Shown here one piece after another: positions 11,965 through 19,461 of a DNA stretch of 38,706 nt. Made by a program: the position numbers and the translations under genes. This DNA comes from a virus (Duplodnaviria > Caudoviricetes). Every line of letters starts with the position of its first letter. Position 1 is the stretch's first letter. The notes under the pieces were generated by a model. That model was not told the DNA's origin. It did no database searches and saw nothing but the letters and a program-made list of their open reading frames with translations. The stretch lies in IMG/VR virus record IMGVR_UViG_3300025267_000039, positions 1-38,706 of that record. The stretch is one strand, 5' to 3'.

Positions 11965-12195
11965 ATGGGAAAAGGAAAAGCTACACAAGAACAGGTAGGA
12001 GGTGTCCACTACAAGGAATGTAAAATACAACCTACTGAATACATCATGGCTAACAAACTGAATTTTTGTGAAGGCAATGTTATCAAGTATGTCACAAGAC
12101 ATCGTGTTAAAGGCGAAGGGTTAAATGATTTGTTAAAGGCCCGACATTATATTGACCTGTGTATAGAGCTAGAGTATGGGGGAGAGAATGTTTAA
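11965..12195 (+). CDS. DUF3310 protein (T7 gp1.7 nucleotide-kinase-related)
   Basis: QVGGxHY, FCEGNVIKYVTR, DLLKARHY. Confidence 0.9.
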   Translation: MGKGKATQEQVGGVHYKECKIQPTEYIMANKLNFCEGNVIKYVTRHRVKGEGLNDLLKARHYIDLCIELEYGGENV

Positions 12196-13864
12196 ATCGA
12201 GTAGGAATCCACAGTTTCGTTCAAAGTTTTCAGAAGATATATTTTATACAAAATATTCTCATGAAGGTGCAGAAACTTTTCATGAGTTAGCTTGCACGTT
12301 AGTTAATGATGTGTGTAGAGAAACCATGAGTAAGGATGAAAAGGAAGCGTTGATTGACCATATTTCTAATCTCCGATTCATTCCCGGTGGACGCTACCTA
12401 TATTATGCAGGCAGAGAAAAGAAGTTCTTTAACAATTGCTATCTATTGAAAGCAGAAGAAGATACGAGAGAAGACTGGGCTAATCTTAGTTGGAAATCAG
12501 AGAGCTGTTTAATGACGGGCGGAGGTATTGGAATAGATTATTCTGTCTACCGCTCTGAAGGACAGAGCCTAAAGGGAACAGGGGGAATTGCATCTGGTCC
12601 TATACCTAAGATGATGATGATTAATGAGATAGGACGGCGTGTGATGCAGGGCGGCTCACGTAGGTCAGCTATCTATGCATCTCTTAACTGGAAACATCCT
12701 GATGCAGAGAAGTTTCTTACTATCAAAAACTGGAATGATATGCCTGTAGGAAATACAGGCCAGACATTATTTGATGTGAAGCAGGCTGACTTTGATTTTC
12801 CTGCTCCTCTGGATATGACTAATATCTCTTTGAACTATGACACTGAGTGGTTGCTTGAATACTGGAGGACAAATGAGGTAGGCGATATCTTTTTACAGAA
12901 TGTACGACAAGCTTTATCAACAGCAGAACCGGGATTTTCTTTTAACTTCTTTGAACAGGAAAACGAAACATTAAGAAATGCTTGTACCGAAGTTACTTCC
13001 GAAGATGATTCAGATGTGTGCAATCTGGGAAGCCTGAACTTTGCTCGTATCGGTGACATTAACCAATTGAGAGAGGTCGTAGACCTAGCAACCAAGTTTC
13101 TTATCTGCGGCACACTCAGGGCAGACCTTCCTTATGATAAGATATTAATGGTGCGTACCAAGAACAGACGCTTGGGCTTAGGTCTTATGGGCTTGCATGA
13201 ATGGTTGCTTCAGCGTGGACTGAAATATGACACCACTCCTGAGCTGCATAGATGGTTAAAAGTGTACGAAGCACAGTCAGATAAGACTGCAGCAGAGTTT
13301 TCTAAGTTTAATGCTATCTCTTGCCCAGTAGGAGTACGTGCTATAGCTCCTACAGGAACGATAGGCATTCTAGGAGGAACCTCCACAGGCATTGAACCTA
13401 TCTTTGCAGTAGCCTACAAGAGAAGGTATATGAAGAACCGTCGCTGGCACTATCAATATGTCGTTGATAGCACAGCACAGGAGATGATAGAAGTTTATGG
13501 TACATCGCCAGATAAAATTGAATCGGCATTAGACCTTGCACCTGATTATGAAAGACGAATGAAGTTTCAGGCTAATGTGCAGGAATATGTAGACATGTCT
13601 ATTTCCAGTACTATTAACTTACCTGAATGGGGAACAGAACATAACAATGAAGCGGGAGTAGAAGCCTTTGCTCATACGTTAGCGAAGTATGCTCATAGAC
13701 TCAGAGGCTTTACTTGTTTCCCTGATGGGTGCAGAGGAGGACAGCCCCTTACCCCGGTTCCTTACAAGGAAGCTATCTCTAAGTTAGGAGAAGAATTTGA
13801 AGACAATATACAGGCCCATGATATATGCACCATCTCAGGGTCTGGAGGAACTTGCGGAGTATAA
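12188..13864 (+). CDS. nrdJ: class II (adenosylcobalamin-dependent) ribonucleotide reductase
   Basis: NNCY, RRSA, NACTE (NxCxE), CNLGSLN, APTGT, C-terminal Cys pair; compact, with no beta subunit adjacent; ATG 12188. Confidence 0.85.
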   Translation: MFKSSRNPQFRSKFSEDIFYTKYSHEGAETFHELACTLVNDVCRETMSKDEKEALIDHISNLRFIPGGRYLYYAGREKKFFNNCYLLKAEEDTREDWANLSWKSESCLMTGGGIGIDYSVYRSEGQSLKGTGGIASGPIPKMMMINEIGRRVMQGGSRRSAIYASLNWKHPDAEKFLTIKNWNDMPVGNTGQTLFDVKQADFDFPAPLDMTNISLNYDTEWLLEYWRTNEVGDIFLQNVRQALSTAEPGFSFNFFEQENETLRNACTEVTSEDDSDVCNLGSLNFARIGDINQLREVVDLATKFLICGTLRADLPYDKILMVRTKNRRLGLGLMGLHEWLLQRGLKYDTTPELHRWLKVYEAQSDKTAAEFSKFNAISCPVGVRAIAPTGTIGILGGTSTGIEPIFAVAYKRRYMKNRRWHYQYVVDSTAQEMIEVYGTSPDKIESALDLAPDYERRMKFQANVQEYVDMSISSTINLPEWGTEHNNEAGVEAFAHTLAKYAHRLRGFTCFPDGCRGGQPLTPVPYKEAISKLGEEFEDNIQAHDICTISGSGGTCGV

Positions 13865-13976: not shown

Positions 13977-14408
13977 ATGCTTTTACAACACTTTAAAGAT
14001 ACACCGCCCTATGTGTGGGATAGTTTCTTTCGTCACTCTATAGGTTTTGATAGAATGTTCAGTCATTTAGAGCGTATGAGAGGAGTTCTTCCTACCTACC
14101 CTCCTCATGATTTACTTAAAACAGATACCGGGTATCAGATAGAAATGGCTATTGCTGGATTTTCCAAGGAAAACATTACTATCGAATTGAAAGATGATAT
14201 TCTTGCTATCAAAGGGGAACTCAAGAACGAAGATAAACATCCTAAGTATCTTCATAAGGGAATAGCAGAGAGAAAGTTTGTAAAGAACTTTTCTTTGTGT
14301 GAGCATGCAGATGTATCAGACATCACACTCAGGGATGGCGTACTGATGATTCAAATCACAATCAACGTTCCTGAAAAAGAGAAACCAAAACTTCTCCCAA
14401 TCAATTAA
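13977..14408 (+). CDS. small heat shock protein Hsp20 (IbpA-like)
   Basis: IGFDRMF, YPPHD, IEMAIAGF, YLHKGIAERKF, DGVL, PEKEKPKLLPI. Confidence 0.95.
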   Translation: MLLQHFKDTPPYVWDSFFRHSIGFDRMFSHLERMRGVLPTYPPHDLLKTDTGYQIEMAIAGFSKENITIELKDDILAIKGELKNEDKHPKYLHKGIAERKFVKNFSLCEHADVSDITLRDGVLMIQITINVPEKEKPKLLPIN

Positions 14409-14422
14409 AAGGAGCTATAAAA

Positions 14423-14497
14423 ATGTGGAGTAAACCTCAAGTACGTGAAATAAATGTAGGCTTAGAAATAAATTGTTATGCCTGCGCTATTCTCTAA
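14423..14497 (+). CDS. pqqA: PQQ precursor peptide PqqA (not in ORF track)
   Basis: AAGGAG RBS; MWSKPQVREINVGLEINCYACAIL; WxxP leader and G-x-E-x-x-x-Y core; 24 aa. Confidence 0.85.
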   Translation: MWSKPQVREINVGLEINCYACAIL

Positions 14498-14500
14498 CAA

Positions 14501-14818
14501 ATGCAATTCATAACAGTAGGTAACAAGCAATACCCTAGAGTTTCTTTACGGTGGAAAGACATCGTAGGAGATTCAGCTATGCAGTCCTCAAAAGAATCCC
14601 GACAACTGGTATGTCCAACGATATGGACAGAAGGATATATTTTTGATTCTTTTGAAGAAGACGGAGAAACTTATGTACGTACTTTTTCTACGTGGGCTGA
14701 GATAGATGATGAGGTAAGCTTTGGAGATAGAAATTGTTTCCCTATAAGTGTACTTATTTCTGAAAGCAAAGACGAATTAGAAAGAGCTTTACTGTTTATG
14801 AAAAAAGATAGTGATTAA
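14501..14818 (+). CDS. conserved hypothetical phage protein
   Basis: 105 aa; YPRVSLRWKDIVGD...TEGYI...FGDRNCFP. Confidence 0.7.
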   Translation: MQFITVGNKQYPRVSLRWKDIVGDSAMQSSKESRQLVCPTIWTEGYIFDSFEEDGETYVRTFSTWAEIDDEVSFGDRNCFPISVLISESKDELERALLFMKKDSD

Positions 14819-14820
14819 CC

Positions 14821-14852
14821 AGAGGAGGGGAGGAGAAATTCTCCCTTCTCTT
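14821..14852 (+). terminator. hairpin, possible terminator closing the hsp20-pqqA unit
   Basis: Purine arm AGAGGAGGGGAG / pyrimidine arm CTCCCTTCTCT directly after the stop; weak U-tract. Confidence 0.45.
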
Positions 14853-14869
14853 AACAGAGATAGGAACCA

Positions 14870-15730
14870 ATGACTGATATACCTACTATTTATATAGGCT
14901 ATGACCCAGCCGAAGACAGAGCTTATAAAGTTTTACGAGAATCAATTTTATGCACCACTTCTGAACCTGTAAGAATAGTTCCTCTAGTTCAATCTTCTTT
15001 ACGTCACATGGGAATCTATCGTAGAAGCTGGGAAAGAGATAAGGATAATAATAAAATTGATAGTATAGATAAAAAACCATTCTCAACTGATTTCAGTTTC
15101 ACACGGTTTCTAGTACCTCTTCTCAATATGTATTCTGGATACGCTATTTATATGGACTGTGATATGTTAGTTCGGTCTGACATCATGGAAGTATTTAATG
15201 TAATGAATAGAACTAATCCTTCTACTGCTTTATGGTGTGTCAAGCACCATTATACACCTACTCAAATTTTAAAGATGGATGGTAAAGTTCAAACACAATA
15301 CTCACGTAAAAACTGGTCAAGTTTTATTCTTTGGAATTGCTCACATGATTCGCATAAAAATCTTACTGTCGATGATGTCAATACTAAACCGGGATTGTGG
15401 CTCCATAACTTTCGATGGTTAGCTGATTTGCCTTTTGCTATGCTAGATGGTCCTTATCCTGCAGAAGATATGCGCGTTTCTTATCACAATGAATTGATAG
15501 GAACTCTTCCTGAAGAATGGAACTGGTTAGATGGACACTCCTCCGAACAGATGCGCCCAAAAAATGTTCATTTCACCACAGGTGGTCCGTGGTTTTCTAA
15601 GTGGAATCCTAGTCGTGCCAAGGATGCCAGCTATGCAGCTGAGTGGGAACAATACAATAACCTTTTAGATATGGATGAGATATTAGGTAGGAAGACCACT
15701 CTAAAGTGGAAAAAAATAAATGACAGCTAA
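14870..15730 (+). CDS. GT-A fold glycosyltransferase (GT8-like / CDI-like)
   Basis: IYIGYD, STDFSFTRFLVP, DCD (DxD), RKNWSS, EWNWL, HFTTGGPWF. Confidence 0.85.
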   Translation: MTDIPTIYIGYDPAEDRAYKVLRESILCTTSEPVRIVPLVQSSLRHMGIYRRSWERDKDNNKIDSIDKKPFSTDFSFTRFLVPLLNMYSGYAIYMDCDMLVRSDIMEVFNVMNRTNPSTALWCVKHHYTPTQILKMDGKVQTQYSRKNWSSFILWNCSHDSHKNLTVDDVNTKPGLWLHNFRWLADLPFAMLDGPYPAEDMRVSYHNELIGTLPEEWNWLDGHSSEQMRPKNVHFTTGGPWFSKWNPSRAKDASYAAEWEQYNNLLDMDEILGRKTTLKWKKINDS

Positions 15731-18101
15731 AATTAATGTTGTAACTTCTTTCTCGGAAGAGGGCTGGAAAGATTATGCACAGAAGATGGTTAACTCTGCT
15801 GCCGAACATTGGGGTCCAAACCTACACCTGACAGCCTTCTATCATGATTTTGATTTACTTTCCTGTAATCCTGTAGAATCTCCAAACATAACTTATCGAA
15901 ACCTCAATGAGATAACAGATATGCTGGAGTTCAGAGAAAGCCATAAAAGATATGATGGAACTCTTGGTGGAGACATGCCCTACAACTGGAAGCATGATTG
16001 TATAAAGTTTTCCCATAAAGTATTTGCTCTAACAGAGTTTGCTTTTGAGTTATGTGCAGATAGCAAGAAACCGGGATGGCTGGTATGGCTGGATGCAGAT
16101 ACTACCACAGACCGGCGCTTTACCATAGAGGACATGGAATCTTGTCTTCCTGCTAAAGCAGAGCTTGTTTATTTAGGAAGGCAGAGCTTTGAATATAGTG
16201 AAACTTCTTTTGTAGGATTCAATCTCAACCACCGCCCTGCAGTAGACCTACTGGGTGACCTTCGTGGGCAATACATCTCAGGTGAAGTTCTTAATTACAG
16301 AGAATGGCATGATGGTTTTATTTTTGAGAGGCTCTTGATTATTTATAATGCTCATGGAATGAAAAGTCATGACTGGACAGGGCATATTAAAGATATAAAA
16401 AGTATGACCAAGGGCAAGCAGGCATTTGACCAAGCTCCTATCGGAAAGTTCATGACCCATTTCAAAGGGAAGAAGAAGAAACTTTATAAAGATAAACATT
16501 CCGAAGACATGGTTATGCCAGCGAAGAGATATCAGCAGTTACTTGACGCTGTTCTATTTTATAAACCTAAAACAATTGTAGAGACAGGTGCGTTTAATGG
16601 ACAACGAGCTATTCAACTATCTTTAGCTGCATTCGAGCACACAGATTCTGTAAGTTACATAGGTTATGATTTGTTTGAGGATGCTACAAGTGAATTGGAT
16701 AAGATAGAATTCAACAGTAAGGACCATAATACCTTACAGGTAGTACGAAAAAGATTGGAAGAGTTCGCTGAGAAAATAAAGAAAAAAGGAAAGACATTTA
16801 CTTTTAGGCTGATAAAAGGAGACACTAAAGAAACACTTCAACATCCTATTGTTATTGATACACCTGAAGGTGAGAGAACTTTACATCCTAACCAAGCTGA
16901 TTTAGCATTCATTGATGGTGGTCATTCAGATGCTACTGTGCAGCATGACTACGCTACTTTAAAAGATGTACGTATCATTATCTTGGATGATTTTATAAAT
17001 CCTATGGAAGAAAAGAAAGAAGAAGCTCTTCATTACTGTGCAGTCAACAGATTATATGATACTATTGAGGACAAAAGAAAATGGGTGCTTCCTTCTGCTG
17101 ACCCTATCTATGCTGAAAGTACACGAATAGGTTCTACGCATCTGGCTATCGTTCTAAATGATGATTCAGAGGAAACAACACCGCCCCCTCCTCAACATCT
17201 CTTTCAGGTTCCTATTATAGTTCAACCGAAAGATTGTGTTCCCAAAGAATACATTCAGAACAACATACAATCAAATACTCAGATGATTAATAAATGGGTA
17301 GGAAGGGCTAAAAGAAATAATGAAGTAGCTATCATGGTATCTGGTGGAGCCAGTACGAACTGGAAAGAACTGGAAGCTGTGATTCAGCATGAGGGAGAAG
17401 AGAACTGTAAGATTGTTTGTGTGAAGCACTCCTATCCAGACCTTCTTAAACACGGCTTCAAACCGTGGGCCTGTGTTATTCTGGACCCCCGGCCTGTGAC
17501 AGGAACGAGCACCCACGGGATAGTTCGTTCAACTCTGTTTGAAAATGTACATGAAGACACTACTTTTATGTTGGCTTCAATGACAGACCCATCAGTGACA
17601 GAGCTTGTTAAAAGTAAAACAGATAAGGTCATAGGCTGGCATGCATTTTCTGAAGCTCTGCGAACTCCTGACGAACAGGGAAAGCAGCCGCGCGATAACA
17701 AACTTATTGTAAAAGAAGAACTAGGGATGGAAGAAGGAGCTACATTGATTGTAGGAGGCACCTGTGCAGCTATGAGGGGCATAGGTATTATGCATACTCT
17801 GGGCTTCCGCTATTTCCATCTATTTGGTTATGATTGTTGTTTTGAAGAACCAACCGAAGAACTTCAGGAATTAAAAGATGACCAAGGAAAGCCCAAATAT
17901 ATTAAGGTGAGCGTAGACCACACCCCTTACTGGACTACTGGTGAGTTACTGGCAATGGCGCAGGATTGTGAGAAATTATTCGGACGGGATGATATAGACA
18001 TGGATATAAATTTTCATGGAGAGAACACCTTAGTGGCTTCGTTGTGGAAGACCTCTCCAATACAGAAACTTAAGCATTATACGGAAGTTATAGGAGGATA
18101 A
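15720..18101 (+). CDS. three-domain protein: GT-A glycosyltransferase + class I SAM methyltransferase + MAF/DUF115-like domain
   Basis: KFSHKVFA..WLDADT..EWHDGFIF; IVETGAFNG..GYDLFE..FIDGGHS..IILDD; VSGGAS..ILDPRP..LGFRYFHLFGYDCC. Confidence 0.75.
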   Translation: MTAKINVVTSFSEEGWKDYAQKMVNSAAEHWGPNLHLTAFYHDFDLLSCNPVESPNITYRNLNEITDMLEFRESHKRYDGTLGGDMPYNWKHDCIKFSHKVFALTEFAFELCADSKKPGWLVWLDADTTTDRRFTIEDMESCLPAKAELVYLGRQSFEYSETSFVGFNLNHRPAVDLLGDLRGQYISGEVLNYREWHDGFIFERLLIIYNAHGMKSHDWTGHIKDIKSMTKGKQAFDQAPIGKFMTHFKGKKKKLYKDKHSEDMVMPAKRYQQLLDAVLFYKPKTIVETGAFNGQRAIQLSLAAFEHTDSVSYIGYDLFEDATSELDKIEFNSKDHNTLQVVRKRLEEFAEKIKKKGKTFTFRLIKGDTKETLQHPIVIDTPEGERTLHPNQADLAFIDGGHSDATVQHDYATLKDVRIIILDDFINPMEEKKEEALHYCAVNRLYDTIEDKRKWVLPSADPIYAESTRIGSTHLAIVLNDDSEETTPPPPQHLFQVPIIVQPKDCVPKEYIQNNIQSNTQMINKWVGRAKRNNEVAIMVSGGASTNWKELEAVIQHEGEENCKIVCVKHSYPDLLKHGFKPWACVILDPRPVTGTSTHGIVRSTLFENVHEDTTFMLASMTDPSVTELVKSKTDKVIGWHAFSEALRTPDEQGKQPRDNKLIVKEELGMEEGATLIVGGTCAAMRGIGIMHTLGFRYFHLFGYDCCFEEPTEELQELKDDQGKPKYIKVSVDHTPYWTTGELLAMAQDCEKLFGRDDIDMDINFHGENTLVASLWKTSPIQKLKHYTEVIGG

Positions 18102-18746: not shown

Positions 18747-19144
18747 ACGAAAAACAAGAAAAATTTGCCCAAGCTTATATTGTTAATCGCAATGCAACTC
18801 AGGCAGCCCGTGCTGCAGGATATGCTGAAGCGTCTGCATATAATCAAGGATATAGACTACTTCAACATCCATTGGTACAGGAACGTATCGAAGAACTTGA
18901 AGGAGAACTTGAAACCAGCGTCGATGTTATAGAAGAAATTGAAAGTCAATATACTTTTGCCAAACAACAGGGCAACACCAACAGTGCTATCAAAGCTTTA
19001 GAACTCCTCTCGCGCATACGTGGTAACAAGAGTGATAAAGAAGACATCAACCATGAGGACTTACGTTCCCGTATAGTAGGTTTCATGGAAATCCTTGGCA
19101 AGGAAGAAATTGACTCTCTTGTAGCCAAGTGCAAGTTTGATTAA
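18734..19144 (+). CDS. terS: terminase small subunit
   Basis: LNEKQEKFAQAY..NATQAARAAGY..GYRLL..IKALELL. Confidence 0.88.
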   Translation: MVELNEKQEKFAQAYIVNRNATQAARAAGYAEASAYNQGYRLLQHPLVQERIEELEGELETSVDVIEEIESQYTFAKQQGNTNSAIKALELLSRIRGNKSDKEDINHEDLRSRIVGFMEILGKEEIDSLVAKCKFD

Positions 19145-19461
19145 ACACTGAAGCTTTCTCCACACCCACATAAAGACTTGGCATTAGGATTGTCTATCTT
19201 TAGTATAGACCCTACGATATCCTTTCTGTAATCTATTGTAGTACCTGTAACAAACATAATCGCTAACGGGTCAATAAATAAATTTCCTGTGGTCAGCGAT
19301 ATCTTTTCTGATGCTGGACTGTCTTCCTCTAGTAGCGACCACACATAAGAAAAACCGGAACATCCCCCTCCCTTAACAGACAAAAGAACTCCCTGAGATT
19401 CAGGTGAGTTCTTCAGTATGCCTGAAAGATGTTCATCGGCTGTTGAGGTTAGTGTAATCAC
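19141..19461 (-). CDS. iscA: HesB/IscA-family Fe-S cluster carrier
   Basis: ITLT, GGGCSGFSY, GTTIDY, NPNA..CGCGESF; all three Cys intact; IscA versus ErpA/SufA not resolvable. Confidence 0.9.
   Translation of the reverse strand: MITLTSTADEHLSGILKNSPESQGVLLSVKGGGCSGFSYVWSLLEEDSPASEKISLTTGNLFIDPLAIMFVTGTTIDYRKDIVGSILKIDNPNAKSLCGCGESFSV

What the first reader, a model, noticed from the sequence alone, without database searches (positions are those of the whole stretch)
14423..14497. Phage-encoded PqqA, the peptide precursor of the redox cofactor PQQ, with no other pqq genes
Seen: a 24-aa ORF below the track cutoff, MWSKPQVREINVGLEINCYACAIL, with a strong AAGGAG RBS directly after hsp20. Known: PqqA has a WxxP leader and an E-x-x-x-Y core that the radical SAM enzyme PqqE (with PqqD) cross-links, and one peptide is consumed per PQQ made. 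No pqqB-E is in the window. Inference: the phage supplies the stoichiometric substrate to the host pathway to sustain PQQ for quinoprotein dehydrogenases or redox protection, or the peptide is a decoy that titrates PqqD/E. It would be a 75-nt auxiliary metabolic gene that most gene callers miss.
Basis: partly seen in the sequence, partly recalled or inferred. Interest (0 to 1): 0.88.

Follow-up and report, generated by a model that had tools for sequence, protein, structure and literature searches.

The report
Phage-borne PQQ precursor gene cassette
A marine phage carries an intact 24-codon copy of pqqA, the peptide that bacteria use up to make the redox cofactor PQQ, as a small cassette that some near-identical phages lack; it likely feeds the host's PQQ pathway during infection, and such viral copies are common and already reported.

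Summary
Confirmed. Window 14423-14497 encodes a 24-aa peptide that passes the curated cut-offs of both PqqA models (Pfam 30.4 vs 21.1 bits; TIGR02107 34.2 vs 20). It sits behind an AAGGAG RBS after hsp20. No pqqB-E was found in this 65%-complete record of a marine HTVC103P-like phage.

RBS, ORF and stop form a 92-nt cassette that two relatives at 96-97% nucleotide identity lack exactly; 0 of 50 related records carry pqqA. Phage pqqA is widespread: about 3,900 IMG/VR stretches (extrapolated), and 120 of 120 sampled matches are small ORFs. With both codons left free, Glu15 and Tyr19 were kept in 240 of 240 viral copies, which favours a real substrate over a decoy. The window's variant matches marine Alphaproteobacteria (e.g. 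order TMED109) that have pqqE and PQQ dehydrogenases; the host is not identified.

Best reading: the phage likely supplies the consumed precursor to host PqqD/E/B/C. Expression and PQQ production are untested. Viral PqqA was reported in 2020 (Lake Baikal) and 2026, and this scan found it before on other DNA (71 notes in at least 65 genomes). New member of a known kind.

The parts
14423..14497 (+). pqqA ORF, 24 aa; leader with Trp2/Pro5, core Glu15-x-x-x-Tyr19
14409..14414 (+). Shine-Dalgarno AAGGAG, 8 nt before the ATG
14409..14500 (+). 92-nt presence/absence cassette (RBS + ORF + stop + 3 nt); a single base stands in its place in L123, L125 and L690
13873..13901 (+). sigma-70-like promoter (TTGACA-17-GATAAT, 11 of 12, with TG) upstream of hsp20; predicted to drive hsp20-pqqA-orf105
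   Evidence: consensus match only; the number of sites found, 4, is at chance level, 3.5
13977..14408 (+). hsp20 small heat-shock gene, upstream neighbour
14501..14818 (+). orf105, 105-aa protein of unknown function; a second optional gene at this site (absent in L124, L691, L692)
14827..14844 (+). terminator-like hairpin closing the predicted unit; a similar hairpin follows hsp20 directly in L124, L691, L692
   Evidence: 1 found vs 0.8 expected by chance

Best explanation
This is a phage-encoded PqqA that likely serves as extra substrate for the host's PQQ pathway during infection. Shown: an intact pqqA with its own RBS sits in a 92-nt cassette after hsp20, with no other pqq gene in the record; viral copies keep Glu15 and Tyr19; bacteria with the same peptide variant have pqqE and PQQ-dependent dehydrogenases. 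Inferred: the peptide is translated from an hsp20-pqqA-orf105 transcript. Host PqqD would bind its leader and host PqqE would cross-link Glu15 to Tyr19; host protease, PqqB and PqqC would then finish PQQ. PqqA is the one part consumed per cofactor while the enzymes are reused, so 75 nt would keep PQQ flowing to periplasmic alcohol or methanol dehydrogenases and respiration in an infected marine alphaproteobacterium. The benefit is probably conditional, because most relatives lack the gene.
For: Both family models over cut-off. With the Glu15 and Tyr19 codons left free: E and Y in 120 of 120 alpha-type and 120 of 120 Methylophilaceae-type viral copies, both synonymous codons used; pooled uncorrected pN/pS 0.21 and 0.15 (0.43 and 0.28 at unconstrained positions). 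Stand-alone in phages: pqqE over cut-off in 0 of 50 records, pqqD in 0 of 49. Host side: pqqE over cut-off in 39 of 43 bacterial genomes with this peptide type; TIGR03075 dehydrogenase matches in 29 of 30, with two or more in 14 of the 18 Cys-type genomes. Host-matched variants: the Methylophilaceae type is found in cultured Methylophilales phages. Bacteria also keep extra pqqA copies (7 of 46 genomes around G079; five copies in a production strain, PMC9851590 passages). Chemistry from PMC10906245 passages.
Against: No experiment shows translation, processing or a fitness effect. The only RNA-library holder has scattered low-depth contigs over 14 of 30 bins, so DNA carry-over is not excluded. 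Patchy: 1 of 80 related loci (a near-identical copy of the window) and 0 of 50 related records carry it, including 7 near-complete ones. PqqA may not be limiting: PMC9851590 names PqqB/PqqC as possibly rate-limiting and reports only a limited gain from pqqABCDE over-expression. PQQ is catalytic, so demand within one latent period may be small (inference). The host is not identified; the best bacterial match is 20 of 24 aa, and the window copy has Ile at position 23 where 112 of 120 have Glu.
Confidence: 0.62

Rival explanations
1. The peptide is processed to PQQ, but the benefit is redox or stress protection rather than dehydrogenase flux: pqqA is part of a stress unit with hsp20, in a genome that also encodes an IscA-like Fe-S carrier.
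For: Position directly behind hsp20 in a predicted shared transcript; IscA-like gene at 19144-19461; Glu/Tyr conservation fits this equally well.
Against: Most Cys-type viral copies lie in head/packaging modules next to portal (31 of 79 loci), GroES (28), terminase and capsid genes, not hsp20. An hsp20 homologue was detected in only 1 of 120 Cys-type loci, the near-identical copy, though 41 of them hold under 700 nt. Cultured carriers infect obligate methylotrophs.
Confidence: 0.14
2. Neutral passenger: a small host gene picked up by recombination at a hot spot between hsp20 and the terminator, without current benefit in this lineage.
For: Absent from 96-97% identical relatives and from 0-of-50 related records; a second optional gene, orf105, comes and goes at the same site.
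Against: The cassette is trimmed to RBS + ORF + stop with no host flank. It is diverged from all sampled copies (at most 51 of 66 nt viral, 49 of 66 bacterial) yet intact. A strain with 13 differences over 444 nt of the upstream region shows no listed difference in pqqA. A further 236-nt contig has an hsp20-like end, pqqA with 10 differences and the terminator. The family is under purifying selection in phages.
Confidence: 0.12
3. Decoy or competitive inhibitor: the peptide occupies host PqqD/PqqE and lowers PQQ synthesis, sparing SAM, iron or reductant.
For: Only the peptide is carried; the window copy deviates at the C-terminus (Ile23, in 2 of 120); a tight-binding slow substrate could keep Glu and Tyr.
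Against: Glu15/Tyr19 kept in 240 of 240 copies. Several viral peptides are identical to bacterial ones. Viral PqqA co-occurs with a PQQ dehydrogenase in Baikal VP_266 and in record G004, which points to boosting.
Confidence: 0.08
4. Counter-defence: PqqA-like peptides take part in phage-host conflict, and the phage copy interferes with a host defence.
For: A marine metatranscriptome study found a PqqA-annotated RiPP family co-expressed with PD-T7-2 and type II RM systems (PMC11118758, one passage); strain-level presence/absence is typical of conflict genes (inference).
Against: That result is co-expression only and concerns host Pseudomonadaceae. The strict match of viral to host PqqA variants and the conserved core are explained more simply by PQQ synthesis.
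Confidence: 0.04

Closest known systems
Bacterial PqqA (PF08042 / TIGR02107), precursor of PQQ
   Same: Length, Trp-x-x-Pro leader, Glu-x-x-x-Tyr core and scores over both cut-offs; up to 20 of 24 residues identical to alphaproteobacterial copies.
   Different: Not in a pqqABCDE operon; sits in a phage behind hsp20, with only 14 nt upstream and so no promoter of its own; optional among close relatives.
Viral PqqA of Lake Baikal population VP_266 (Coutinho et al. 2020, PMC7678222; passages read)
   Same: Virus-encoded PqqA proposed as an auxiliary metabolic gene that boosts host PQQ.
   Different: Freshwater methylotroph virus that also encodes methanol dehydrogenase; here a marine HTVC103P-like phage with an alphaproteobacterial peptide variant and no dehydrogenase among the 48 window proteins scanned.
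Virus-encoded pqqA/pqqD/pqqE in reservoir sediments (PMC13188868; passages read)
   Same: Lists pqqA among viral auxiliary genes.
   Different: Read there as phosphate-solubilising genes in freshwater sediment, with pqqD and pqqE also viral; here pqqA stands alone.
Cultured Methylophilales phages Venkman (MT375522), P19250A (KX815270), Melnitz (MZ577097)
   Same: Each carries an intact pqqA ORF with an RBS and no same-strand annotation.
   Different: Methylophilaceae-type peptide, different phage groups, known methylotroph hosts.
HTVC103P-type pelagiphages and Roseobacter phage CRP-3
   Same: Closest cultured relatives: PolA 45-46% to HTVC103P/104P/115P, class II RNR 69-71% to CRP-3/CRP-212, and a similar two-module layout.
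   Different: No pqqA motif in the stretches fetched (24.8 of 53.0 kb of CRP-3; 29.2 of 54.1 kb of HTVC103P); too distant to give the host.

Membership tests
PqqA (PQQ precursor peptide) | Score over the curated cut-off of PF08042 and TIGR02107 | tested here: met
   30.4 vs 21.1 bits; 34.2 vs 20 bits
PqqA (PQQ precursor peptide) | Short stand-alone ORF with Glu-x-x-x-Tyr near the C-terminus and an N-terminal leader | tested here: met
   24 aa, Glu15/Tyr19, Trp2/Pro5
PqqA (PQQ precursor peptide) | Cognate pqqB-E in the same genome | tested here: not met
   None in the record (65% complete; pqqC without positive control). Expected for a phage copy that uses host enzymes; orphan copies also occur in bacteria. 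This excludes 'pqq operon', not 'PqqA'.
PqqA (PQQ precursor peptide) | Binds PqqD, is cross-linked by PqqE, yields PQQ | not testable with these tools
   Needs biochemistry; the peptide is also below the 30-residue size for complex prediction
Viral auxiliary metabolic gene | Lies within a bona fide phage genome, flanked by phage genes | tested here: met
   Primase, PolA, RNR upstream; holin, TerS, virion proteins downstream; the same layout in 99.97% identical L122
Viral auxiliary metabolic gene | Conserved under purifying selection in viruses | tested here: met
   E/Y 240 of 240; pN/pS 0.15-0.21 across viral copies; family-level, not specific to this lineage
Viral auxiliary metabolic gene | Expressed during infection | tested here: inconclusive
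   One RNA-library contig bridges hsp20 and pqqA (14110-14478, depth 4.5), but pieces are scattered genome-wide and DNA is not excluded
Viral auxiliary metabolic gene | Host has the pathway, and the gene alters host metabolism | tested here: inconclusive
   Bacteria with the same variant have pqqE and dehydrogenases, but the host is not identified and no effect was measured

The most novel reading that the evidence does not exclude
Phage pqqA is one of the most widespread overlooked auxiliary genes: a ribosomal-peptide precursor that hijacks the host's maturation enzymes. It occurs in thousands of viral contigs in host-matched variants and has been placed at different sites in related and unrelated phage groups. 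This lineage shows it switching on and off as a clean 92-nt cassette among 96-97% identical strains. The Cys-type peptide would then tag phages of uncultured TMED109-like alcohol-oxidising Alphaproteobacteria, and precursor supply would limit energy yield in infected cells.
Probability: 0.3. Interest if true: 0.62.

Novelty: new member of a known kind. Interest (0 to 1): 0.34.

Why it matters
If the reading holds, phages tune host cofactor supply with a 75-nt gene that annotation usually misses, in abundant marine and freshwater bacteria that oxidise methanol and other alcohols. Auxiliary-gene surveys would have undercounted it, and the peptide variant could help assign hosts to uncultured phages. 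The idea is in print but untested. What this work adds is scale, an unbiased test of the two reactive residues, a natural plus/minus pair of close relatives, and cultured phage-host pairs (Venkman, P19250A, Melnitz) in which it can be tested.

Tried and rejected
tblastn of the 24-aa peptide against 50,697 phage records found nothing, and blastn of the cassette gave only 18-25 nt chance matches. The tblastn was too insensitive, since it missed the Methylophilaceae-type copies found. The first motif scans fixed Glu and Tyr and could not test their conservation, so they were repeated with those codons free. Chance or in-frame pieces of larger proteins were rejected: 120 of 120 matches have a start within 8 codons and a stop 22-23 codons after the Trp. 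Host contamination of viral contigs was rejected for the records tested: no pqqE or pqqD, and phage head genes as neighbours; pqqB and pqqC were searched only in the window's own record. Host assignment by the IscA-like gene led nowhere, as did PolA and RNR best hits, which point to SAR11 and roseobacter phages respectively. Expression could not be shown. The regulatory box that earlier notes describe before other viral pqqA genes has no room in the 14 nt upstream here; upstream regions were only inspected by eye. Gain versus loss is unresolved: rarity among relatives favours gain, while the diverged hsp20-pqqA-terminator contig in run X18 (236 nt, one side only 25 nt, so weak) suggests an older presence at this site. 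L689 (same length as the window's record) and L122 were not counted as independent.

Full report
Observation. The + strand of 14423-14497 gives the 24-aa peptide and a TAA stop. AAGGAG lies at 14409-14414, directly after the hsp20 stop and 8 nt before the ATG. The peptide scores 30.4 bits on Pfam PqqA (cut-off 21.1, E 3.8e-7) and 34.2 bits on TIGR02107 (cut-off 20, E 1.6e-8). It is the only match in the record, a linear virus record about 65% complete. Models for pqqD, pqqB, pqqC and pqqE found nothing in it at E<=1 (the pqqC search rang in no control either).

The phage. The window holds primase/helicase, PolA, class II RNR, hsp20, a glycosyltransferase-like gene (label from my reading of the sequence; PHROG unknown), a methyltransferase/MptE-like protein, holin and TerS on +, and IscA-like and virion genes on -. 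PolA is closest to HTVC103P-type pelagiphages (45-46%) and RNR to Roseobacter phages CRP-3/CRP-212 (69-71%). HTVC103P-type phages are described as marine podoviruses (10.1101/2019.12.14.876532, passages). Runs holding the stretch are marine or aquatic viral metagenomes, and 17 of the 20 are flagged as possible sources. A sigma-70-like promoter (11 of 12) precedes hsp20 and a hairpin follows orf105. Neither count exceeds chance, so the hsp20-pqqA-orf105 transcript is a prediction.

A cassette. Of 80 loci related through the 793-aa neighbour (the best 80 of 300), only L122, 99.97% identical to the window, has pqqA; 25 of the 80 include an hsp20 homologue. L123 and L125 (96-97% nucleotide identity) match to 14408 and resume at 14501 with one base between, so they lack exactly RBS + ORF + stop. 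L124 (75%), L691 and L692 lack both pqqA and orf105. TIGR02107 found pqqA in 0 of 50 related whole records (47 of those 80 plus 3 orf105 relatives; 7 at least 90% complete), while ringing in 5 of 5 known carriers. In public runs, a strain with 13 differences in 444 nt upstream shows no listed difference in pqqA. One 236-nt contig joins an hsp20-like end, pqqA with 10 differences and the terminator, without orf105 (weak, one side 25 nt). Gain or loss is unresolved.

How common. A degenerate motif matched an estimated 3,900 stretches of IMG/VR (extrapolated from 2 of 64 parts; stretches, not species). All 120 returned are small ORFs, with a start within 8 codons and a stop 22-23 codons after the Trp. 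Most are of a Methylophilaceae-like type. About 330 stretches are of the window's Cys type. In 79 Cys-type loci with flanks, the commonest neighbours are portal (31), GroES (28), terminase and capsid genes. Of five near-complete carriers, three have PolA 49-57% identical to the window's, about as close as non-carriers at 57-61%, and two are unrelated. pqqE passed its cut-off in 0 of 50 viral carriers (chosen from 120, mostly the longest; three weak radical-SAM hits), pqqD matched 0 of 49, and a PQQ dehydrogenase 1 of 49. A Methylophilaceae-type query hit 9 cultured Methylophilales/Methylophilaceae phage records. The three inspected, Venkman, P19250A and Melnitz, have intact pqqA ORFs with no same-strand annotation.

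Substrate or decoy. With the Glu15 and Tyr19 codons left free, both residues were present in 120 of 120 alpha-type and 120 of 120 Methylophilaceae-type copies (98 and 108 distinct DNA sequences), with both synonymous codons in use, while leader positions varied. Pooled pairwise pN/pS was 0.21 and 0.15, or 0.43 and 0.28 at positions the pattern did not fix. These values are uncorrected and not tree-based, and copies diverged at the fixed positions would be missed. PqqD binds the leader and PqqE cross-links these two residues before protease, PqqB and PqqC act (PMC10906245, passages).

Likely hosts. One scan of GTDB genomes returned 121 of about 330 stretches with the alpha-type core; 41 are Cys-type, the best 20 of 24 identical to the window peptide. 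Titles are mostly uncultured Alphaproteobacteria. Two Cys-type genomes (SP94, MarineAlpha9_Bin3) are labelled TMED109 and one (SP28) GCA-2721365 in the supplement of PMC12542740 (passages). pqqE passed its cut-off in 39 of 43 genomes tested, and dehydrogenases matched in 29 of 30, with two or more in 14 of 18 Cys-type genomes. This narrows the host to a type, not a taxon. The phage is 42% GC and the sampled TMED109-like loci about 30%.

Mechanism. Shown: gene, cassette, conservation, stand-alone state, and pathway in matching bacteria. Inferred: expression, processing by host enzymes, and a gain in dehydrogenase-driven respiration because PqqA is the consumed part. Against: no proof of expression, since the RNA-library contig over 14110-14478 is one of 11 scattered low-depth pieces; most relatives lack the gene; and one production study names PqqB/PqqC as possibly rate-limiting, while also reporting five pqqA copies and high pqqA expression during PQQ synthesis (PMC9851590, passages). 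I put substrate supply for dehydrogenases at 0.62, redox protection 0.14, passenger 0.12, decoy 0.08 and counter-defence 0.04.

Prior knowledge. Viral PqqA was reported for Baikal population VP_266 beside methanol dehydrogenase (PMC7678222, passages), and viral pqqA/D/E for reservoir sediments (PMC13188868, passages). PMC11118758 mentions host PqqA co-expressed with defence systems (one passage). In the Melnitz paper, PQQ appears in the main text only as a medium additive (PMC9004378). Three searches (listings only, 30 of 60 papers listed) showed no experimental test and no large census. The library lacks most subscription papers, and supplements other than those of PMC12542740 were not searched, so gene tables naming viral pqqA may exist. 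This scan's index holds 71 notes on the theme in at least 65 genomes and none for this genome or this sequence.

Verdict. A real PqqA and a sound candidate auxiliary gene, but a new member of a known kind. Interest 0.34, resting on scale, the clean plus/minus cassette and ready test systems.

Noticed in passing
window 14501-14818 (+): orf105, unknown function, is a second optional gene at the hsp20 site; only 6 relatives were found in IMG/VR, three of them at 58% in another context.
   Followed up: partly
window 19144-19461 (-): IscA/ErpA-like Fe-S carrier gene; a phage-associated clade at 59-98% identity precedes cellular-type hits. PqqE is an Fe-S enzyme, but relatives without pqqA also carry this gene.
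   Followed up: partly
window 14870-18101 (+): A glycosyltransferase-like gene and a 793-aa protein with methyltransferase and MptE-like/PseD-like domains form a pair conserved across the 80 related loci; possibly a DNA or virion glycosylation module.
   Followed up: no
window 12176-13864 (+): B12-dependent class II RNR about 70% identical to Roseobacter phages CRP-3/CRP-212; many relatives carry a distant RNR (22-27%) or none in the locus, suggesting RNR swapping.
   Followed up: no
L680:1501-1572, L681:1501-1576, L682:1501-1564: Unannotated pqqA in cultured phages Venkman and P19250A; in Melnitz a hypothetical CDS is called on the opposite strand instead. MEP301/401/402 also hit but were not inspected.
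   Followed up: partly
G004 (L062, L693, L694): A viral record with both pqqA and a full-length PQQ-dependent methanol/ethanol dehydrogenase, like Baikal VP_266.
   Followed up: no
L245 (record G181): The only other sampled viral copy with Ile at position 23 lies in a phage whose PolA is 57% identical to the window's; possibly a shared origin.
   Followed up: no
L342, L391, L332, L337, L355, L377, L380: Small marine alphaproteobacterial genomes with two or three pqqA copies close together.
   Followed up: no
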